A DNA stretch of 40,051 bases, taken from the NCBI GenBank assembly GCA_964406145.1, contig CAYOQP010000007.1, positions 1 to 40,051 on the forward strand, written 5' to 3'. Numbering within the stretch: position 1 is the first letter of the stretch; every line of letters starts with the position of its first letter. The position numbers and the translations under genes are program-made. The stretch comes from an uncultured Candidatus Saccharibacteria bacterium (GTDB lineage Bacteria > Patescibacteriota > UBA1384 > XYA2-FULL-43-10 > 1-14-0-10-43-13). The notes beneath the pieces are model-generated. The model saw nothing but the letters and a program-made list of their open reading frames with translations. It was not told the origin of the DNA and did no database searches. Below are positions 5,983 to 14,060 of this stretch, in pieces.

Positions 5983-7365
5983 TTAGGCGAAATGACGCTT
6001 TTTTTCGATTTTTTCGAGATAGCTGATTCGCCACGCTATATCGTGAATAGCTTCCTTTTTGAGGGCGATAAAAGCATTTCTAGAAGTATAGAAATAATCC
6101 GAAGGAGAATCAGTCTTGAACATTGGCTTTCTGTCTCTATTTTCGCGGGTCATGATTGCGACTGGATAATCCTCGAAGCCAAGCTCCCAAAGAATCTGGC
6201 CCTCCTCCGACTCGTCAAATGTCATCATTTTGAGTATTTGATATTTAAGATTTTTCTTGATCCTACGATTGGGCTCCTCTTTGGGCTTAAAATAGTTGAC
6301 CGAATCTTCTAAGATCTTTTTCAGCGCATCAACCGGCGTCACCTTATTCTTGACCAATTGATTGATCACTTTTAGCCGCATCAGAGGACTGCCTTCCAAC
6401 CTTTCTGGTCGGCCATAATTCTTCAATGCCTGGCAAACCTCCTCGTCATTTACAACCGAAAGACCAGAAGAGACATTATAGATAAGATCATTAACAAACG
6501 TCGAAAACCAGTCGTAGAAAGAGTGGCTAAATATTACAAACATCATGATTAATATCACAAGAACATATGATCGAAAGTTTGCCTCAATTTCCGAAACCAA
6601 AAATGCTAACAAATAAATAATTATAATTAAAATTATTGATGCAGTTTTTATAAAAAATGCTTTATCGAATAATTGTTTTATGGAAATTAATAAGAAGTAT
6701 TTAACAATTGAATAAATAAATATTAAGAGAGAAATACTTATACCAGAAGAGTACAATAAATCTGTTGTATTTATGTAAAAATGATAAGAAAAGGCTACTA
6801 TTATGCCAGTGGCCAGAAGAAAAAAACCACTCAAACTTGGCAAAAAGTACTTCCAAAAATTTTCTTTGATTCGCAATATACAGTTCCAAATTCCAAATGA
6901 GACATACAGACAAACAAAAGTGATTGATGGTATTAGCATTACTCCGGGTTCGAATCCATCAATTCTACGAAAATCATTAAAACGAACACTGTTTTCCCGC
7001 AAGATTAACCCGCCCTTTATGTCGATAATATACAGAAAAATGACTGCCAAATAACCCAAAAACAACAGCGCTTTGTCGGAAGTGCTTATTTTTTTCTTAA
7101 TATAAAGACTAGCATGATAATAAAAAATCGGGGCGAAGAATATCGGCCAATCAGTAATTTTTTGCCAAATTGTATAGGATCTAACATCTGGCGACTGCAA
7201 AAGAATAGAATCGGTAAAAATTGTAATGCCGTATCCCACTATAATCGCAAAAGTTATCCATGATAATTTTTTATAAGGATCTTTTGATAATATATATGTG
7301 GCAACCCAGAGAAAAATAAATCCCAGAAAAAGTTCAAAATAATCCCTTATTGCAAGATTAATCAT
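5983..7365 (-). CDS. Multi-TM (HisKA_7TM-like) sensor fused to a cytoplasmic helical domain ending in a sigma4/HTH-like motif; putative one-component regulator
   Basis: About 9 hydrophobic segments in the first ~285 aa. The C-terminus 'ALKNY..PERLEGSPL...LKKILEDSV...KYQILK...QILWELGF...SRNAFIALKKEAIHDIA' resembles RinA/ArpU/sigma4-type HTH termini. SD GAGGAGG. Confidence 0.65.
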   Translation of the reverse strand: MINLAIRDYFELFLGFIFLWVATYILSKDPYKKLSWITFAIIVGYGITIFTDSILLQSPDVRSYTIWQKITDWPIFFAPIFYYHASLYIKKKISTSDKALLFLGYLAVIFLYIIDIKGGLILRENSVRFNDFRRIDGFEPGVMLIPSITFVCLYVSFGIWNCILRIKENFWKYFLPSLSGFFLLATGIIVAFSYHFYINTTDLLYSSGISISLLIFIYSIVKYFLLISIKQLFDKAFFIKTASIILIIIIYLLAFLVSEIEANFRSYVLVILIMMFVIFSHSFYDWFSTFVNDLIYNVSSGLSVVNDEEVCQALKNYGRPERLEGSPLMRLKVINQLVKNKVTPVDALKKILEDSVNYFKPKEEPNRRIKKNLKYQILKMMTFDESEEGQILWELGFEDYPVAIMTRENRDRKPMFKTDSPSDYFYTSRNAFIALKKEAIHDIAWRISYLEKIEKKRHFA

Positions 7366-7389
7366 CCATCCTCCTCATTCCGATTGCAA

Positions 7390-8361
7390 TTATTTGATAC
7401 TATTTAGTTTATCCAATGTTTCCATCTTTCTTATTATGAAATTCCCTTTTTTCAAGAGCTCTTTTTCATCATTTAACTTTTCTTCAATCCAAGTATCAAG
7501 CTCTTTAGTGGCAGCATTTTTCCCTAATAATTCTTGCGCAACAACCTTACCAGACAAGCAAGCGGCATATATGCCCTTGCCCGTTAAGCCGTTAGTAAGT
7601 CCGGCTGCATCACCAGCTAGAAATATATTCTTAAATTTATAACCCTTATAATCAAAATTAATTATAAAACCTTCAAACTTAGCAGTTGTTAAATCAACGC
7701 CAATTTTTTTAATCCATTTATCAAGATTTTTTCGGACATTCTTCATACATGAGCATGAGGAGTCTACGCATGCTCCGACTGAAGAGAAGTTCTTATTTGG
7801 AAATAACCAGGCATAACCCTTTTCAAATAAAGGCTCGTCGGCATATAGCTCAAATTTTTCGCAACAAGATCTGGTTATATATTGAACGGCCGAGAGATAT
7901 TTCTTCGTCGGTATGTTCAAGTACCGACGCACAATCGAATTAGCACCATCGGCGCCTATTAGATAATCAAAACAGAACTCTTCGCCCGTAGAAATAACGA
8001 CTGATTCCTGTTTTATCTCCTTAACTTTTGCTCCCAATTTTAGTTCAATATTAGACACACCAGATAGGCCAGCTACCCACTTTTTTATTAAATTTGGTCT
8101 ATCTATTGAGGATATTAAGCCTCGGCCAGCAGGCATCTGAATTTTTCGATTATTTGCACAAAGAAAAACTGGTTCAAGAGAGTAGTTCATTTCTAGCGGG
8201 GAAATAAACATCGTATCTTGTTTTGTGACCCCAGAGGCACAAACCTTTTGTCCAAAATCGGAATTTTTCTCCAAAATAAGAACATTAAAATCAGATCTTG
8301 CCAATTCTCTTGCACACGCAAGTCCTGCGAAAGAAGCACCGATTATGATAACTTTTTTCAT
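7390..8361 (-). CDS. Geranylgeranyl-reductase-family FAD-dependent oxidoreductase
   Basis: IIIGASFAG Rossmann motif, KVCASG (GGR PCG-like), IGADGANSIVR, GYAWLFP (YxWxFP), AGDAAG...TGKGI. Confidence 0.85.
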   Translation of the reverse strand: MKKVIIIGASFAGLACARELARSDFNVLILEKNSDFGQKVCASGVTKQDTMFISPLEMNYSLEPVFLCANNRKIQMPAGRGLISSIDRPNLIKKWVAGLSGVSNIELKLGAKVKEIKQESVVISTGEEFCFDYLIGADGANSIVRRYLNIPTKKYLSAVQYITRSCCEKFELYADEPLFEKGYAWLFPNKNFSSVGACVDSSCSCMKNVRKNLDKWIKKIGVDLTTAKFEGFIINFDYKGYKFKNIFLAGDAAGLTNGLTGKGIYAACLSGKVVAQELLGKNAATKELDTWIEEKLNDEKELLKKGNFIIRKMETLDKLNSIK

Positions 8362-8462
8362 ATTTAAAGATAGTTCCTTGTTTCAGAATTATAATATCAC
8401 CTATTTGGCACAAAAAACTACAGCTAAAAATCTAAAATATCAGCACATTAAAAAGATGAACA

Positions 8463-8491
8463 TTGCCTATAGCGATAAATCAATTTATAAT
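8463..8491 (+). promoter_or_regulatory. Sigma70 promoter, probably producing a leaderless ubiA-like mRNA
   Basis: TTGCCT-17 nt-TATAAT, then 6 nt to ATG 8498; no SD. Confidence 0.6.
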
Positions 8492-8497
8492 ATTATC

Positions 8498-9304
8498 ATG
8501 CAACATCATGGCAGAAAAATTTTTGAAATCCTAGAGATGTCTTTAACCACTTTTTGCGCACCTGCTACCGCACTGGCCCTATCAATTTTATTCGATCTGA
8601 GAATTTCTTGGCAATTTCTATTACTTATAACAATTTTGCCATTTATAATATATTTTTTTGATTATTTTGATGATGAAGGAATAAAGGAATTCAGATCTAG
8701 AAAACTCATAGTCTGGATTCTTGTGTTTCTAATTCTCATTTCTTTGTACATTGTTATCGTTTACAGCAATTTAACAACCTTACTGTTTTTTGCAATGCTT
8801 TTACTTCTTGGTATACTCTACCCGCTAATATTCAAAAAGATAACTCAAAAAATCGTGGGGTTTAAAGACTACTTTGTCGCATTAAATTGGAATTTTTTAA
8901 TTATATTTTATTTCTGTTTCTTTGGAATAAATTTGACCTCTGGATTACTTTTTATGTTAGTTTTTATTTTTATACGAGACATGATCAACGTAAATTATTG
9001 CGACATTAAAGACATACATCAAGACAAAAATATTGGACTTAAAACAATAGCAATGAGTCTGGGCAGAAAGAGAATTTTGCTACTAATACACTGGGGCAAT
9101 TTTTTAAGTATACTTATGTTGATCACTGGAATTTGGTTAAAAATTATTCCGATTCAATCAATATCTCTTCTAATACCGGTAATATTAATTTGGATGCTTA
9201 TTTTTCTTTCATCATTAAAGAACAAATTTAACACTTTCATCGTGGATCTAGAATATCCACTATGGTTAATTGTTATTATCTTGGGAAAGGTTCTGCTAAA
9301 ATGA
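8498..9304 (+). CDS. UbiA-family prenyltransferase
   Basis: Multi-TM protein; Asp motifs DYFDDE and DIKDIHQD followed by GLKT..LG; FKD in the central loop. Start moved from 8225 (overlaps the opposite gene) to 8498. Confidence 0.85.
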   Translation: MQHHGRKIFEILEMSLTTFCAPATALALSILFDLRISWQFLLLITILPFIIYFFDYFDDEGIKEFRSRKLIVWILVFLILISLYIVIVYSNLTTLLFFAMLLLLGILYPLIFKKITQKIVGFKDYFVALNWNFLIIFYFCFFGINLTSGLLFMLVFIFIRDMINVNYCDIKDIHQDKNIGLKTIAMSLGRKRILLLIHWGNFLSILMLITGIWLKIIPIQSISLLIPVILIWMLIFLSSLKNKFNTFIVDLEYPLWLIVIILGKVLLK

Positions 9305-10968
9305 GTGTCGACCTGAACACAATAAAAGAATTGTTCCTTGTTGTTGTAATAATCCTCTCCCTTGTCTTGGGATTATCAATTTTATTGGCGAACAGGCAAT
9401 CAAAAAAACATATCTTTTTCTTTTTATCTTGCGTTTCTATGATTTTTTGGGTGACATTTGGTGATATAATTTATATTGAAGCATTCAGAAATTATCTAAC
9501 ACCCATAGGCAGAGCCAACCTTTTATCTGTAGCGCTTTTTTTGGTTTTTATACATGGATTTGTCGCCAACTATCCCGAAGATCAAGCAAAATGGAGAAAG
9601 ATTGATATTGTCTACATGGCGGCAGGAATATTATTGGCAATTATTACCTCTTTTTCCCCTTTTGTAGTAAAAGAGATCAGATTAAGCGGCAGCGACAGAA
9701 TATGGGATATGGGATTAATGATGTACCCTTATTATGCTTACGCAATATCTACAACATTTATTGTCGTGGCCAGATTACTTCGAAGATATGTCGGATCTTC
9801 CGATATTGACAAAATAAAAATTCGATACTTCTTTAGCGGTCTTTTAATTTTGGGGTTGTCAAATATTGTTTTTAACGTACTGGTACCATTATTTTTCTCA
9901 AATGATGGCCTTTATTGGTTGGGAGATTTCTCCTTAATATTTCTCCTTGCATTTACAGGTTATGCGATAGTCAAATATCGAGCATTCAATATCAAATTAA
10001 TTGCTACTGAAACTATTGTAATAGTCCTTTCAATTTTGCTCTTGGTAGAAAGTTTTACATTCAATAACAATTCGACTGAGTTTGTTCTGAAACTATTAGT
10101 ATGGATAATAGCAACATATGCTGGTTTACAGCTCGTTAAAAGTGTCCGCAAGGAAATTGAGCAGAAAGAAAAATTAGCGGCTCTTTCCAAGGAGCTTGAG
10201 AAGGCCAACCTCCATCTAAAGGAGATTGATAAGCTCAAGGACGACTTCTTGTCCATGGCATCGCACGAGCTTAATACTCCTATCGCCGCTATCGAAGGCT
10301 ACCTATCAATGATTCTTCAAGAAGGTATCGGCGGTAAGATTCCAGCAAAAACCCGCGAATATCTCGAAAGCGTCTTTCTCTCATCACAAAGATTGGCCCA
10401 CTTGGTTAAGGACTTACTTAATGTTTCTCGTATCGAGTCTGGGCGTATCCATATTATTTATGAGCAGAAACAAGTCGAAGATATTATCGATCAAGCCATC
10501 ATGGAAGTGATGTCCAAGGCGCGAGAAGCAAAACATACACTGACTTTCGTGAAGCCAAAGAAGAAAATGCCGATGACATGGATAGACGTCACTAGAATCA
10601 CTGAGATACTGATTAATATTATGGGAAATTCGATCAAGTACACGCCCAATGGTGGTAAGATCACTGTAAAATGTGTTAATGATGACGAAAAAATTGTTGT
10701 TTCGGTCGAAGATAACGGTAAGGGTATCCCGAAAGAGCGAGCCAAGGCTGTCTTTGAGAAATTCACACAGGTTGATGTCATGAAAGATGAAGTCAAGGGC
10801 ACAGGATTGGGCATGTACATAGCTAAAAAGTTCATCGAGCTGATGCACGGCAAAATCTGGTTCAAGTCCGATGGTGCTGGCAAAGGTTCCACATTTTATT
10901 TTTCTCTTCCAATTCTTAAAAACAAACCGTTCGATCCTCACGAAGGTGAAGACGCAGTCTTGCATTAA
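9301..10968 (+). CDS. Sensor histidine kinase with N-terminal HisKA_7TM-like domain
   Basis: Multi-TM N-terminus; H-box FLSMASHELNTP, N-box NIMGNSIKY, G1 DNGKGI, F-box VFEKF, G2 GTGLG. ATG at 9301 overlaps the ubiA stop (ATGA). Confidence 0.93.
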   Translation: MSVDLNTIKELFLVVVIILSLVLGLSILLANRQSKKHIFFFLSCVSMIFWVTFGDIIYIEAFRNYLTPIGRANLLSVALFLVFIHGFVANYPEDQAKWRKIDIVYMAAGILLAIITSFSPFVVKEIRLSGSDRIWDMGLMMYPYYAYAISTTFIVVARLLRRYVGSSDIDKIKIRYFFSGLLILGLSNIVFNVLVPLFFSNDGLYWLGDFSLIFLLAFTGYAIVKYRAFNIKLIATETIVIVLSILLLVESFTFNNNSTEFVLKLLVWIIATYAGLQLVKSVRKEIEQKEKLAALSKELEKANLHLKEIDKLKDDFLSMASHELNTPIAAIEGYLSMILQEGIGGKIPAKTREYLESVFLSSQRLAHLVKDLLNVSRIESGRIHIIYEQKQVEDIIDQAIMEVMSKAREAKHTLTFVKPKKKMPMTWIDVTRITEILINIMGNSIKYTPNGGKITVKCVNDDEKIVVSVEDNGKGIPKERAKAVFEKFTQVDVMKDEVKGTGLGMYIAKKFIELMHGKIWFKSDGAGKGSTFYFSLPILKNKPFDPHEGEDAVLH

Positions 10969-10970
10969 AA

Positions 10971-11417
10971 ATGATTAAAGATTTTTCGTTTGGCGTAATC
11001 CCCACATATAGAGATCCCAATACAGATCAGCTCCTTTTTCTATTGATCCATCACACCGGCGAGAGTGGCTATTGGGGTTTTCCCAAGGGTCACAAAGAGG
11101 GCAAGGAGACCAACATCGAGGCGGCAAGGAGAGAACTCGTGGAGGAAACAGGTATTTACGAAGTGAATATTATTGACGAGCCAGCACTTGAAGATAGATA
11201 TTTTTTCGAAAGAGATAAAATAAAATATGATAAAATCGCTACTTTTTATATCGGCACATTGGCCTCACAGCCAACCTTGGAGTTACAGCTAACAGAGATC
11301 GACGAAGCTGGGTGGTACGATTTTGAAACAGCTTATGAACTTCTGACTTTTGACACCTTAAAAGAAATAATAAAAAAAGCCAACCAGTGGCTTATCGATA
11401 ATAAAATATCTCTTTAA
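10971..11417 (+). CDS. NUDIX hydrolase (Ap4A-hydrolase-like)
   Basis: WGFPKGHKEGKETNIEAARRELVEETG Nudix box. Confidence 0.9.
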   Translation: MIKDFSFGVIPTYRDPNTDQLLFLLIHHTGESGYWGFPKGHKEGKETNIEAARRELVEETGIYEVNIIDEPALEDRYFFERDKIKYDKIATFYIGTLASQPTLELQLTEIDEAGWYDFETAYELLTFDTLKEIIKKANQWLIDNKISL

Positions 11418-12220
11418 AGCTTTATTTTGTCTAATTTATCCTCGCTCTTTGAGGATTTTTCTTTTGATACCGTACTCGCAAGAAAGATCAAAAGAAATCC
11501 GATTACCAAAGCAGAGATAAATTCGATAGTAAAATAGAATGATTCCTTAGATAGAGCAACGGAGATAGCCTTATTCAATCCATTGATCAACTTTGGATCC
11601 TCGAAAAACTGTATTTTGTTAGTAAAATTAGAAATATAAGTCGGGACGACTGAAGACAAGAGATATATTGCCAAGACCAATACAATCGAAATGCCGATTA
11701 AAGCCGAGCCAAGCCAGATAAATTTAGAGCGGAATCCGTCTGCCATAAGTAAAATAAGACCGAGAATAAAGATAGCCAGAGTCCCCAAAACGATCAATAT
11801 GAGATTGATGTTTTTCAAGACGACAAAAGCAAGATTATTGTTTAGATTGAGAGTTTTTTGAAAAGATAAATTTTTATCGCCATACTTAAAAATAATGGGG
11901 AAAGTCATGGTGTCGGAACCACTTTCGATGGCCAAGAAAACATTGTCAATCGTCTTGTCGATAACCGGCTGAACAGTTTTTCCATTAATATCCTGATTCA
12001 ATTTTTCAAAATTAGCACCTTCATCGACGGAAAGGCCTGATTTTTTGACAATATCGTCCTTGATATATGCGGCAGCAATATCGTAAAAATTCGCCTCCTT
12101 GATAACACCTTTGACTGAGTCTTTATTAATTAAAGCAACTTTTGTATTAAAAGCGACGAAGAAAATAGCGGCAATTGAGACAAATATAATTAAAAAGATT
12201 AAAGCAAAAAAATTTTTCAT
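11414..12220 (-). CDS. Hypothetical membrane protein
   Basis: N-terminal TM, soluble domain, three further TM segments. Confidence 0.75.
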   Translation of the reverse strand: MKNFFALIFLIIFVSIAAIFFVAFNTKVALINKDSVKGVIKEANFYDIAAAYIKDDIVKKSGLSVDEGANFEKLNQDINGKTVQPVIDKTIDNVFLAIESGSDTMTFPIIFKYGDKNLSFQKTLNLNNNLAFVVLKNINLILIVLGTLAIFILGLILLMADGFRSKFIWLGSALIGISIVLVLAIYLLSSVVPTYISNFTNKIQFFEDPKLINGLNKAISVALSKESFYFTIEFISALVIGFLLIFLASTVSKEKSSKSEDKLDKIKL

Positions 12221-12256
12221 TTGATTATATTATACACCAATTTAGATAGTGGTAAT

Positions 12257-12871
12257 CTAGGCCTGAAAAGTAATTCTCTTATATACTGCCCGAGTGGCCT
12301 CGACGTCTCGTTTGCAATATTCGGCAATTTCATCGACTTTTCCAGCCAGAAAATAATCGTAGACTTTGGAACCATCAATCCCCTCCTCCTTTGGCGACGT
12401 AATCCCCAAGGCAGTCGTCAAGCGATGCAAACTAACTCCCTGTGAGCCCCATTTTTCCCATTCTTTCATCGTGTCAAAAATTGGCTCAGAGCGATATCGA
12501 GCAAAACTGATTTCTCGACTTGGACGAATACCATGGATGATTGACCGCTTAAAGATAAAACGCAAATCAAATTCCATTAGATTGTGACCAACGAAAAGGT
12601 GCGCATCCTTAGCGATAGCCCAAAATTTGCGCAAAATTTCCTTTTCATCACCAACAAGGCATTCGGTTTTTTCATTATCAATAGCGTAACCAATACAAAT
12701 AATTCGGCCAAATTCTCCTTGAAATGAGGTATTACGAAAAAAATTCTCAAAATCAGATTCTTTTTTATCTTTTTGAGGATTTTTGGCTTTGGCATCTTGC
12801 CAAAGTTTCTTCAGCGTCGGAATGTCTTCGCCAGCCGCCGGGATTGTCTCGATGTCCAAAAATAATTTCAT
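12257..12871 (-). CDS. PolB-like/RNase H-fold 3'-5' exonuclease
   Basis: ExoI LDIET, ExoII GHNLMEFD, ExoIII YCKRDV; SD AAGGAG. Confidence 0.88.
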   Translation of the reverse strand: MKLFLDIETIPAAGEDIPTLKKLWQDAKAKNPQKDKKESDFENFFRNTSFQGEFGRIICIGYAIDNEKTECLVGDEKEILRKFWAIAKDAHLFVGHNLMEFDLRFIFKRSIIHGIRPSREISFARYRSEPIFDTMKEWEKWGSQGVSLHRLTTALGITSPKEEGIDGSKVYDYFLAGKVDEIAEYCKRDVEATRAVYKRITFQA

Positions 12872-12981: not shown

Positions 12982-13306
12982 GCTTTAAGTAAAGCAGACG
13001 GCAGCCCTTTCGGGGGAGGAAAGTCCGGGCACCATAGAGTAGAACGCTCGTGAAAATGAGTGGGCAGTGATGTCCAAGAACAGCGCAACAGAAAATATAC
13101 CGCCTTGGCGCAAGTCGAGGTAAGGATGAAATCGTGAGGTAAGAGCTCACGCGCTCGCATGGCAACATGCGTTTGTGGCAAGCCTCGTTCGGTGCAAGTG
13201 AAGTGGACTAAATGTATTAATTCTCTACTCGAGAAGATACAAATAGTCTTCACGCTTAGATAGATTGTCGTCCTTGACAGAACCCGGCTTATGATTTACT
13301 TTTAGC
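12982..13306 (+). ncRNA. rnpB: RNase P RNA (bacterial type A, reduced)
   Basis: GAGGAAAGTCC and ACAGAACCCGGCTTA (P4 halves), ACAGAAA, GGTAAGAG; P1 AAGTAAA/TTTACTT; P6 GAGTA(13037-41)/TACTC(13226-30). End coordinates approximate. Confidence 0.96.
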
Positions 13307-13986: not shown

Positions 13987-14060
13987 TCGGGGATCGTCTA
14001 GTGGCAGGACAGCGGCCTTTGAAGCCGTGAACCATGGTTCGAATCCATGTCCCCGAGCCA
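13987..14060 (+). tRNA. tRNA-Gln (TTG), CCA encoded
   Basis: Acceptor TCGGGGA/TCCCCGA, anticodon arm GCGGC-CTTTGAA-GCCGT, T-arm CATGG-TTCGAAT-CCATG, discriminator G. Confidence 0.95.

What the first reader, a model, noticed from the sequence alone, without database searches (positions are those of the whole stretch)
5983..10968. Candidate prenyl-signal synthase plus twin 7TM receptor system (UbiA + GGR flanked by a kinase and a one-component regulator)
Seen: layout [7TM-HTH <- GGR-family reductase <- 136-bp divergent promoter -> UbiA prenyltransferase -> 7TM histidine kinase]. Each enzyme is tightly coupled to a receptor (ATGA overlap at 9301-9304; 24-bp gap at 7366-7389). Established: UbiA enzymes attach prenyl chains, GGRs saturate them (the same family pairing acts in archaeal ether-lipid and chlorophyll synthesis), and quorum systems typically place the synthase beside its receptor. 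Inference: the two enzymes make or modify a hydrophobic prenylated molecule that is sensed within the membrane by two receptors with different outputs. This would be an undescribed lipid-like cell-cell or host-sensing circuit. No peptide precursor gene is visible, so the substrate is probably a small molecule.
Basis: partly seen in the sequence, partly recalled or inferred. Interest (0 to 1): 0.9.

Follow-up and report, generated by a model that had tools for sequence, protein, structure and literature searches.

The report
Prenyl enzyme with matched membrane sensors
In a tiny-genome Patescibacteria bacterium, a lipid-attaching prenyltransferase gene shares an operon with a seven-helix membrane sensor kinase, and in relatives the sensor half of the kinase is inherited with the enzyme rather than with the rest of the kinase, as expected of a signal-maker and its matched receptor.

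Summary
The four genes are real and lie where stated: a 460-aa membrane protein, a short GGR-family flavoprotein, a divergent UbiA prenyltransferase and a HisKA_7TM histidine kinase. The ATGA overlap and the 24-bp gap are confirmed.

The two "7TM" parts are homologous (hhalign 98%, E 8e-14). The "HTH" of the 460-aa protein is not verified: its C-terminal domain folds confidently but matches no Pfam, PDB or viral structure.

UbiA followed by the 7TM kinase is a conserved module. It holds at 13 of 17 other UbiA places in the class, and in 4 of 4 further genomes from a phylum sample.

In 54 kinase loci, the slot upstream of the kinase holds interchangeable enzyme cassettes: UbiA, ThiF-type, GNAT-like, FeeM-like and terpene-synthase-like.

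The sensor-domain tree follows the cassette, while the kinase-core tree follows taxonomy (AU tests p 4e-55 and 2.5e-40). UbiA divergence correlates with the sensor and not with the core. This is the mosaic known from comQXP.

GGR linkage is local: the window and two metagenome contigs.

Best reading: the sensor is specific for the product, or the substrate, of the co-encoded enzymes. Whether this is cell-to-cell signalling is untested. No prior description was found.

The parts
5983..7365 (-). 460-aa membrane protein ('ORF1'): a 7TM sensor domain, two further helices and a conserved cytoplasmic domain
   Evidence: ORF. Family of 112 proteins at E<=1e-3, 6 of them carrying PF16927. AF2 model has mean pLDDT 84.1, with nine long helices before residue 297.
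6685..7365 (-). ORF1 residues 1-227: 7TM sensor domain homologous to the kinase's sensor
   Evidence: hhalign of A1 against A4: probability 98.1%, E 8.4e-14 over 227 columns. Direct BLASTP of the two window proteins is not significant (E 0.19).
5986..6480 (-). ORF1 C-terminal 165 residues: highly conserved all-helical domain of unknown fold family
   Evidence: Mean column identity 60% in 29 sequences. AF2 pLDDT 87.1, pTM 0.83. No Pfam family shared by more than 2 of 29 members at E<=1. Best PDB profile match E 0.1. Foldseek best E 1.2 in PDB and 0.57 in BFVD.
7390..8361 (-). Short (323 aa) GGR-superfamily flavoprotein, 24 bp upstream of ORF1
   Evidence: TIGR02032 E 2.8e-35 (122.5 bits, cut-off 158.8) and FAD-binding Rossmann families. 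Weak matches to solved archaeal GGRs, E 2e-4.
8362..8497 (.). Divergent intergenic spacer between the GGR-ORF1 and UbiA-kinase gene pairs
   Evidence: Sequence read. One promoter-like site on the + strand at 8463-8491 (10 of 12), but such sites are not enriched. No operator-like repeat and no motif evident by eye among 8 such spacers.
8498..9304 (+). UbiA-superfamily prenyltransferase of a small, unnamed subfamily (alternative start 8456)
   Evidence: PF01040 at 41.5 bits. 426 representatives at E<=1e-3. Second Asp motif DxxDxxxD is invariant in 60 of 60; the first motif is D/N (60 of 60) xxx E/D (53 of 60). Best NCBIfam is NF010117 in 47 of 60 members.
9301..10968 (+). Histidine kinase with N-terminal HisKA_7TM-type sensor (about 9301-10040) and HisKA/HATPase core
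   Evidence: Start overlaps the UbiA stop. The sensor falls in the isoprenoid-cassette clade. The core is closest to same-family kinases with other cassettes.
10971..11417 (+). NUDIX hydrolase gene starting 2 nt after the kinase stop; possibly co-transcribed, with no established tie to the module
   Evidence: PF00293 E 1.8e-13. A NUDIX homolog also lies downstream of the kinase in L083 and L089, which carry a different cassette.

Best explanation
The window holds one example of a modular signalling locus of Patescibacteria. A conserved histidine-kinase core is fused to an exchangeable 7TM sensor. That sensor is always co-encoded, and probably co-transcribed, with an exchangeable small-molecule enzyme cassette just upstream.

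Here the cassette is a UbiA-family prenyltransferase with intact metal-binding Asp motifs. The divergent operon adds a GGR-type reductase and a second protein that carries a homologous 7TM sensor on a different, novel cytoplasmic domain.

Most likely mechanism:
1. UbiA attaches a prenyl chain to an unknown acceptor in the membrane. The chain would come from the genome's single trans-polyprenyl synthase on contig C11.
2. GGR may saturate that chain.
3. The resulting lipid, or its precursor, is the ligand read inside the membrane by the kinase's 7TM domain, and probably by the second 7TM protein.
4. The kinase then phosphorylates a stand-alone receiver protein encoded elsewhere.

Shown: the gene structure; homology of the two sensors; conservation of the UbiA-kinase pair; co-inheritance of sensor with cassette against the kinase core.

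Inferred: that the enzymes are active; that their product is the ligand; what the output is; and whether the signal acts within one cell, between cells or towards a host.
For: Coupling. The UbiA stop overlaps the kinase start. Overlapping or abutting UbiA-kinase pairs also occur in L002, L003, L004, L005 and L008.

Recurrence.
- 13 of 17 non-self UbiA places in 162 class genomes lie directly upstream of, or one gene from, a 7TM kinase.
- All 4 further genomes in a 401-genome phylum sample show the same.
- Metagenome loci L032 and L036 have kinase, UbiA and divergent ORF1. L034 repeats UbiA | GGR-ORF1.

General rule. In 54 kinase loci, 52 have a co-oriented gene within 200 bp upstream. These fall into recurrent enzyme types: UbiA 12, ThiF+515-aa protein 12, GNAT-like 9, ThiF+FeeM-like 6, and others (Pfam).

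Mosaic.
- The sensor tree needs 14 changes of cassette label against 28 of taxonomic-family label. The kinase-core tree needs 29 against 16.
- All 12 UbiA-linked kinases and the one kinase linked to the terpene-synthase-like gene alone form one sensor clade (SH-aLRT 98).
- Core columns reject that clade (p-AU 4e-55; 8e-44 without the long row L078).
- Sensor columns reject a clade of the window's own order (p-AU 2.5e-40).
- Example: L088 has a core 79% identical to the window's and a sensor 17% identical. L060 has core 49% and sensor 31%.

Co-divergence. Among the 12 UbiA-kinase pairs, UbiA identity correlates with sensor identity (Spearman 0.34; 14 of 5000 permutations as high). It does not correlate with core identity (-0.06; 3489 of 5000).

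Enzyme plausibility.
- The Asp motifs are conserved.
- 8 of 16 distinct UbiA loci have a polyprenyl-synthase homolog within 5 kb.
- The genome has a polyprenyl synthase, with a neighbouring gene on C11 that I take for DXS from recall, and UppS.
Against: - No experiment and no expression data were used.
- The prenyl acceptor is unknown, and no exporter lies in this cassette.
- No response regulator is adjacent to any of the 12 UbiA-type kinases downstream. The window genome's 5 receivers lie on other contigs.
- GGR is not part of the conserved module.
- For ORF1 the sensor/output mosaic could not be demonstrated (p-AU 0.13), and its output domain is unidentified.
- Transmembrane regions generally diverge faster than catalytic cores. 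Low sensor identity alone means little, so the argument rests on the conflicting trees.
- The trees are 'quick' IQ-TREE searches with LG+G4.
- Cassette labels come from my own ORF calling and clustering.
- Genomes of one class are kin, so the shuffle counts overstate independence.
- G015:C10 and G026:C63 look like one sequence counted twice.
- The same mosaic is expected if the sensor detects the cassette's substrate rather than its product.
Confidence: 0.5

Rival explanations
1. Sense-and-respond module. The 7TM sensors detect an external or host-derived compound that is the substrate of the cassette enzymes (uptake, modification or detoxification). The enzymes are the response, not the source of the signal.
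For: Sensor-cassette co-inheritance is equally expected when sensor specificity matches the enzyme's substrate. Some cassettes contain an MFS transporter, GNAT-like acyltransferases and methyltransferases, which also occur in resistance modules. Patescibacteria depend on hosts for lipids (general knowledge, recalled).
Against: - The kinase lies downstream of the enzymes in the same gene run. That order is typical of auto-inducing operons such as comQXPA (PMC4008528, passages read) rather than of resistance systems, where the two-component genes usually stand apart (recalled).
- UbiA, terpene-synthase-like, FeeM-like and FabA-like enzymes are biosynthetic types.
- UbiA loci often sit beside the polyprenyl synthase that would supply an endogenous substrate (8 of 16).
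Confidence: 0.22
2. Ordinary envelope or lipid-carrier metabolism. UbiA and GGR make or modify a structural isoprenoid lipid, such as an ether-type lipid or a saturated polyprenyl carrier. The kinase monitors general membrane state. The adjacency reflects a recombination hot spot next to a conserved kinase.
For: - UbiA + GGR is the pairing of archaeal lipid and chlorophyll pathways. The nearest NCBIfam models after NF010117 are DGGGP-synthase-like (19 and 16 of 60 members).
- The best PDB profile match is a decaprenyl-phosphate phosphoribosyltransferase (E 0.0055).
- The kinase has conserved downstream synteny while the upstream slot varies.
Against: - A hot spot does not explain why the sensor half of the kinase is exchanged together with the enzymes.
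- It does not explain why UbiA divergence tracks the sensor.
- This UbiA subfamily is almost never found away from the kinase.
- The subfamily is patchy: 14 of 162 class genomes and 7 of 401 phylum genomes. That is unlike a core lipid enzyme.
Confidence: 0.13
3. The UbiA-like protein is a non-catalytic membrane partner that modulates the kinase by direct contact, like known accessory proteins of envelope-stress kinases.
For: Tight translational coupling and co-divergence with the sensor would also fit a physical partner.
Against: - The catalytic Asp motifs and conserved Lys/Arg positions are kept in all or nearly all of 60 members.
- There is genomic linkage to polyprenyl synthase.
- Other cassettes in the same slot are soluble enzymes (ThiF, GNAT-like, AMP-ligase), so a common contact mechanism is unlikely.
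Confidence: 0.05

Closest known systems
ComQXPA quorum sensing of Bacillus (isoprenyl transferase ComQ, peptide ComX, polytopic kinase ComP, regulator ComA)
   Same: A prenyl-transferring enzyme is encoded just upstream of, and often overlapping, a multi-helix membrane histidine kinase. The kinase has a strongly variable N-terminal membrane domain and a conserved cytoplasmic domain (PMC4008528, passages read). The window's family shows this as conflicting sensor and core trees.
   Different: - ComQ is of the polyprenyl-synthase fold, not UbiA.
- There is no room for a ComX-like peptide gene here (4-nt overlap).
- ComP's kinase domain is of another Pfam family (PF07730, per the paper).
- No ComA-like regulator is adjacent.
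- The same kinase chassis takes cassettes of quite different chemistry.
- A second receptor with a homologous sensor is present.
agr locus of staphylococci (AgrB, AgrD, sensor kinase AgrC, AgrA) with its hypervariable specificity region (recalled, no paper read)
   Same: Signal-producing genes and the sensor half of a polytopic kinase vary together, while the kinase core and regulator stay conserved.
   Different: It uses a peptide signal and a membrane protease, not a prenyltransferase. It varies within a species, whereas here the pattern is across families of a phylum.
UbiA + GGR pairs in known pathways: DGGGP synthase with archaeal GGR, chlorophyll synthase ChlG with ChlP, MenA with MenJ
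   Same: Same two superfamilies side by side.
   Different: - Neither protein reaches any equivalog cut-off.
- The UbiA belongs to an unnamed subfamily.
- The GGR is short (323 aa).
- The GGR is linked to this UbiA only in the window and L034, with L033 showing GGR-ORF1.
- None of those pathways is coupled to a kinase, to my knowledge.
HisKA_7TM (PF16927) sensor kinases
   Same: The kinase's N-terminus matches the model over 2-222 of 224 positions. 6 of 112 ORF1 relatives carry the family too.
   Different: The score is just under the gathering cut-off (27.5 against 28.6). No ligand is known for the family: the two papers that name it only list it as a sensor domain (PMC5847659 and PMC6944256, passages read). 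Its use on a non-kinase output domain (ORF1) was not found described.

Membership tests
UbiA prenyltransferase superfamily (PF01040) | Match to the family model above its curated cut-off | tested here: met
   41.5 bits against a cut-off of 34.2, E 1.3e-10.
UbiA prenyltransferase superfamily (PF01040) | Two Asp-rich metal/diphosphate-binding motifs (form of the motifs recalled) | tested here: met
   Second motif D183/D186/D190 is invariant in 60 of 60. First motif: position 69 is D or N in 60 of 60, position 73 is E or D in 53 of 60. The third acid position is D in only 27 of 60 and K in the window protein, which has extra acids next to it.
Named UbiA subfamilies (UbiA, MenA, DGGGP synthase, ChlG/BchG, DPPR synthase) | Reaching an equivalog model's cut-off or clear similarity to a solved member | tested here: not met
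   Only TIGR01474 matches, at 20.8 bits against a cut-off of 275. phmmer against PDB finds nothing at E<=10. The profile's best PDB matches are E 0.0055 to 0.76.
Geranylgeranyl reductase family (TIGR02032) | Family model above cut-off | tested here: not met
   122.5 bits against a cut-off of 158.8, although E is 2.8e-35 over 3-295 of 297 positions. GGR_cat PF22578 scores 21.2 against 27. It is best called a GGR-superfamily member of unknown substrate.
Geranylgeranyl reductase family (TIGR02032) | FAD-binding Rossmann fold at the N-terminus | tested here: met
   PF01494, PF07992, PF13450 and PF01266 are above their cut-offs at residues 2-51.
Two-component sensor histidine kinase | HisKA phospho-acceptor and HATPase_c domains | tested here: met
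   HisKA E 3.5e-17 and HATPase_c E 6e-28.
HisKA_7TM sensor domain (PF16927) | Match above the gathering score | tested here: inconclusive
   Kinase: 27.5 bits against 28.6, full-length match. ORF1: no direct hit, but homologous to the kinase sensor family at 98.1% probability.
One-component transcription regulator with HTH (for ORF1) | A recognisable DNA-binding domain | tested here: not met
   - No Pfam family in more than 2 of 29 members at E<=1.
- Best PDB profile match E 0.1, to an unrelated BAR-domain protein.
- Foldseek finds no match at E<=0.001 in PDB or BFVD.
- Only faint leads: phage 'Sigma70' and 'ECF sigma' models at E 2.5 and 4.3, and an ArpU-family cluster at 0.89.
ComQXPA-type quorum sensing | ComQ-type (polyprenyl synthase fold) transferase and a ComX pre-peptide gene between transferase and kinase | tested here: not met
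   The enzyme is UbiA. Its stop overlaps the kinase start, leaving no gene between them.
ComQXPA-type quorum sensing | Sensor domain and signal-making genes vary together while the kinase core is conserved | tested here: met
ComQXPA-type quorum sensing | Extracellular, density-dependent signal activating the kinase | not testable with these tools
   Needs culture or heterologous assays.

The most novel reading that the evidence does not exclude
Patescibacteria carry a phylum-wide family of 'plug-in' chemical communication loci. One vertically inherited kinase chassis, often with a second receptor on a novel output domain, exchanges by recombination a block made of a biosynthetic cassette plus its cognate 7TM sensor. 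This creates signal-specificity groups analogous to Bacillus pherotypes, but spanning unrelated chemistries: prenyl lipids, terpenes, N-acyl amino acids and ThiF-made compounds. In this genome the signal would be a partly saturated prenylated lipid read within the membrane, used for talk between these episymbionts or with their hosts.
Probability: 0.3. Interest if true: 0.9.

Novelty: new variant of a known kind. Interest (0 to 1): 0.78.

Why it matters
- Almost nothing is known about how ultra-small, host-dependent Patescibacteria sense their surroundings, and the HisKA_7TM sensor family has no known ligand.
- This locus gives a concrete, testable enzyme-receptor pair.
- Its relatives give a natural panel of cassette/sensor combinations on one kinase chassis. 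That panel could reveal ligands for a whole receptor family.
- It would show that the pherotype-like mosaic known from Firmicutes quorum sensing also operates across a candidate phylum and with non-peptide chemistry.
- It also flags a conserved, structurally confident cytoplasmic domain with no known relatives.

Tried and rejected
- Direct BLASTP of ORF1 against the kinase was not significant (E 0.19). Only profile-profile comparison showed the homology.
- The word-based homolog search for UbiA found only the window's own two gene calls. The exhaustive HMMER search was needed.
- Foldseek of the whole ORF1 model gave only generic seven-helix receptor matches (best E 0.016, TM about 0.3, none at E<=0.001). 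I take this as helix-bundle likeness, not kinship.
- The HTH reading of ORF1's C-terminus was tested five ways and not supported.
- An operator search in the divergent spacer found only two short AT-rich inverted repeats. I saw nothing shared among eight such spacers by eye.
- Promoter and terminator scans were at chance level.
- A mosaic test for ORF1 like that for the kinase was inconclusive. The C-terminal columns do not reject the N-terminal grouping (p-AU 0.13), and most rows are metagenome contigs without taxonomy.
- The AU test holding the window's order together on kinase-core columns gave p 0.0012. I set it aside because two metagenome rows of unknown taxonomy nest inside that clade in the free tree.
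- Complex prediction of the kinase sensor with UbiA returned 'no answer' (score 0.00). It counts neither for nor against binding.
- GGR as a conserved part of the module was rejected.
- Supplementary files of papers were not opened. Table S3 of PMC4008528 (ComP topology) might refine the comparison.
- The claim that the system is undescribed rests on five searches. In those I read only the listings, plus passages of three papers.
- Labels recalled and not tested: DXS, IDI, YjbQ, PQ-loop, GreA-like, the agr comparison, and the class I terpene-synthase motif forms.

Rows dropped:
- Of the 94 kinase-sensor places, 52 went into the trees. 13 of the best 65 were left out: mostly partial matches at contig ends, a few for lack of region slots. 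The 29 weakest were never fetched.
- Loci L019-L023, L025 and L037 were dropped as duplicates of loci already held.
- L101-L103 and L107 repeat earlier places.

Full report
**What is there.**
The window is contig C7 of a 761,667-base, 30-contig genome. Its homologs carry names such as Patescibacteria group, Parcubacteria and Candidatus Berkelbacteria.

- a 460-aa protein (ORF1) at 5983-7365(-);
- a 323-aa protein at 7390-8361(-);
- a UbiA-like ORF ending at 9304(+), with ATG starts at 8456 and 8498;
- a kinase ORF ending at 10968(+), with ATG starts at 9262 and 9301.

The ATGA at 9301-9304 and the 24-bp gap are real. The 136-bp spacer holds if UbiA starts at 8498.

Pfam and NCBIfam give:
- UbiA above its cut-off;
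- a GGR-superfamily flavoprotein under the family cut-off;
- a HisKA/HATPase kinase whose N-terminus matches HisKA_7TM just under the cut-off;
- nothing for ORF1.

Each of ORF1, GGR and UbiA is single-copy in the genome. The kinase has a full-length paralog on C23.

**The two sensors are homologous; the HTH is not shown.**
- ORF1 belongs to a family of at least 112 proteins of about 460 aa, 6 of which carry PF16927.
- An AF2 model from 32 sequences is confident (pLDDT 84.1) and shows nine long helices followed by a helical domain.
- A profile of the ORF1 family against a profile of 38 kinase sensor domains gives 98.1% probability, E 8.4e-14, over residues 1-227. 'Twin 7TM receptors' is therefore correct.
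- The C-terminal 165 residues are far more conserved than the membrane part (58-68% against 25-40% identity in relatives; 60% mean column identity). They fold confidently on their own (pLDDT 87.1, pTM 0.83).
- They match nothing in Pfam, in PDB by profile, or by Foldseek in PDB (best E 1.2) or BFVD (best E 0.57).
- Faint hints to phage sigma-like regulators are leads only.

**The UbiA.**
- The word-indexed search found no relative.
- The exhaustive search found 426 representatives, only 24 of them at E<=1e-30.
- In 60 aligned members the second Asp motif is invariant, and the first is kept as D/N...E/D.
- The nearest NCBIfam model is the unnamed 'prenyltransferase' NF010117 (47 of 60), followed by DGGGP-synthase-like models.
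- Solved structures match only marginally.
- It looks like an active prenyltransferase of unknown acceptor.
- The genome can supply prenyl diphosphates. A polyprenyl synthase lies on C11 beside a gene I take for DXS (that label is recalled and not tested), and UppS lies on C13.
- In 8 of 16 distinct UbiA loci a polyprenyl-synthase homolog lies within 5 kb. This is not so in the window.

**Neighbourhood survey.**
- In 41 related genomes, G000 included, ORF1 is found in 9, UbiA in 11 and GGR in 10.
- In the whole class sample the UbiA subfamily is in 14 of 162 genomes, and the kinase's sensor domain is in 81 of 162.
- Combining the coordinates, 13 of the 17 non-self UbiA places lie directly upstream of a 7TM kinase or one gene from it. 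The four exceptions are second copies in G012 and G004, the G010 copy, and a weak hit in G001. Two of the 13 (G015:C10, G026:C63) look like one sequence binned twice.
- In a 401-genome phylum sample the subfamily is in 7 genomes. The 4 new ones all have the kinase sensor right after UbiA.
- Metagenome contigs repeat the window's architecture. L032 and L036 have kinase, UbiA and divergent ORF1 (three tandem ORF1 copies in L032). L034 has UbiA | GGR-ORF1, and L033 has GGR-ORF1.
- GGR homologs in five loci of relatives lie among unrelated genes. GGR is a local addition.

**A slot for interchangeable cassettes.**
I called ORFs in 54 kinase loci: 52 of the 94 places plus two metagenome loci. I then clustered the co-oriented genes lying within 200 bp upstream.
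- 52 of 54 loci have such genes.
- Types: UbiA 12; ThiF plus a 500-527-aa protein without a Pfam family, often with an MFS transporter, 12; a GNAT-like 215-231-aa protein 9; ThiF plus a FeeM-like N-acyl amino acid synthase 6; two small unknown proteins 3; ThiF with other genes 2; a terpene-synthase-like protein alone 1; other 7; none 2.
- The GNAT and terpene-synthase labels are weak (E 0.0018 and 0.0042). The latter is helped by DDxxD-like and NxxxTxxxE-like motifs conserved in two members (motif forms recalled).
- A stand-alone receiver follows the kinase in 17 of 54 loci, and in none of the 12 UbiA-type loci.
- The window genome's paralog on C23 has the GNAT-like gene upstream and a receiver downstream.
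- ORF1 homologs sit divergently next to kinase operons of several cassette types: UbiA, terpene-synthase-like, FabA+methyltransferase, ThiF types.

**The mosaic.**
- On a tree of the sensor columns, cassette labels need 14 changes (minimum 8; shuffled mean 35.3; 0 of 200 shuffles as low). The tool's taxonomic-family codes need 28.
- On a tree of the kinase-core columns it is the reverse: 29 against 16.
- All 12 UbiA-linked kinases and the one linked to the terpene-synthase-like gene alone form one sensor clade (SH-aLRT 98). That clade draws from four taxonomic families and two metagenome contigs.
- Kinases of the window's own family that have other cassettes fall elsewhere in the sensor tree.
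- The core columns reject the isoprenoid clade (p-AU 4e-55; 8e-44 without the long row L078).
- The sensor columns reject a clade of the window's order (p-AU 2.5e-40).
- In plain identities to the window kinase: L088 (same family, ThiF type) is 79% in the core and 17% in the sensor. L060 (another family, UbiA type) is 49% and 31%.
- Among the 12 UbiA-kinase pairs, UbiA divergence follows sensor divergence (Spearman 0.34; 14 of 5000 permutations as high) and not core divergence (-0.06).
- So the enzyme and the sensor half of the kinase are inherited as one block, and the kinase core as another.

**Interpretation.**
This is the pattern described for comQXP of Bacillus. There an isoprenyl transferase, its peptide substrate and the membrane domain of ComP are polymorphic, against a conserved cytoplasmic ComP domain (PMC4008528, passages read). 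From recall, the staphylococcal agr locus shows it too. It argues that the sensor's specificity is tied to what the cassette makes or uses.

I keep apart what is not shown: enzyme activity, the ligand, the output, and any between-cell role.

The main rival is that the sensor detects the cassette's substrate and the enzymes are the response (0.22). It fits the trees equally well. What speaks against it is the gene order and the biosynthetic nature of the cassettes.

A structural-lipid reading (0.13) does not explain the mosaic or the patchy distribution. A non-catalytic partner (0.05) is unlikely given the conserved active-site motifs.

**Caveats.**
- The trees are quick searches under LG+G4.
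- Labels rest on my own ORF calls.
- The genomes are kin, so shuffles overstate independence.
- Taxonomic codes are the tool's own, and two rows lack them.
- For ORF1 the mosaic is not demonstrable.
- No expression data were examined.

**Novelty.**
Five literature searches turned up no description of a UbiA-kinase module, of HisKA_7TM ligands, or of such cassette swapping in Patescibacteria. HisKA_7TM is only listed as a sensor domain in the two papers that name it.

I rate this a new variant of a known kind: synthase-receptor loci with a co-varying sensor. Its unusual features are a UbiA/GGR cassette, unrelated chemistries on one chassis, and a second receptor bearing a domain with no known relatives.

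Noticed in passing
L027:3454-3696, L038:7079-7342, L041:5586-5810, L051:12818-13072: Small ORFs of about 75-87 aa lie just downstream of ORF1 homologs. They resemble the C-terminal domain of GreA-type transcription factors (recalled motif). This hints that ORF1's unknown output domain acts on transcription. There is none in the window, where valS follows ORF1.
   Followed up: no
L032:9919-14056: Three tandem ORF1 paralogs lie opposite a UbiA-kinase operon. Copies 2 and 3 have nearly identical C-terminal domains (branches 0.039 and 0.11) but divergent 7TM parts (0.76 and 0.79).
   Followed up: partly
G000 contig C23:1366-4209: The genome's second 7TM kinase has a GNAT-like gene upstream and a stand-alone receiver downstream. 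The same trio recurs in L080, L092, L094 and L095.
   Followed up: partly
L018:8693-9040: A receiver-like 115-aa gene lies directly upstream of, and co-oriented with, the ORF1 homolog. It is a possible link between the kinase pathway and ORF1. Pfam found nothing for it at E<=0.01, but it clusters with verified receivers.
   Followed up: no
L002-L005, L063, L073-L075: A membrane protein of 88-110 aa (PQ-loop-like by recall) precedes UbiA in four relatives. It also sits in ThiF-type and other cassettes. It may be a shared small transporter of these loci.
   Followed up: no
window 10971-12871: A NUDIX gene starts 2 nt after the kinase stop. A 268-aa membrane protein and a PolB-exonuclease-like gene follow on the other strand. 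A homolog of one or both of these two genes lies downstream of the kinase in L002, L004, L006 and L015 (read by eye from the gene maps), and a 268-aa homolog in L032 and L073. The kinase therefore sits in a conserved frame while its upstream slot varies.
   Followed up: partly
window 12986-13306 and 13987-14060: RNase P RNA (class A, 185 bits) and tRNA-Gln. The RNase P gene explains the local GC rise to 0.51.
   Followed up: yes
G015:C10:6-1526 and G026:C63:6-1520: The same UbiA-kinase fragment, with one in-frame TAA, appears at the same coordinates in two genome bins. It is probably one contig binned twice and should not be counted as two observations.
   Followed up: no
L018:5721-7235, L065:4697-6253 and 10 more loci: A protein family of 500-527 aa without any Pfam match is the commonest partner of ThiF upstream of these kinases (cluster of 12).
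   Followed up: no
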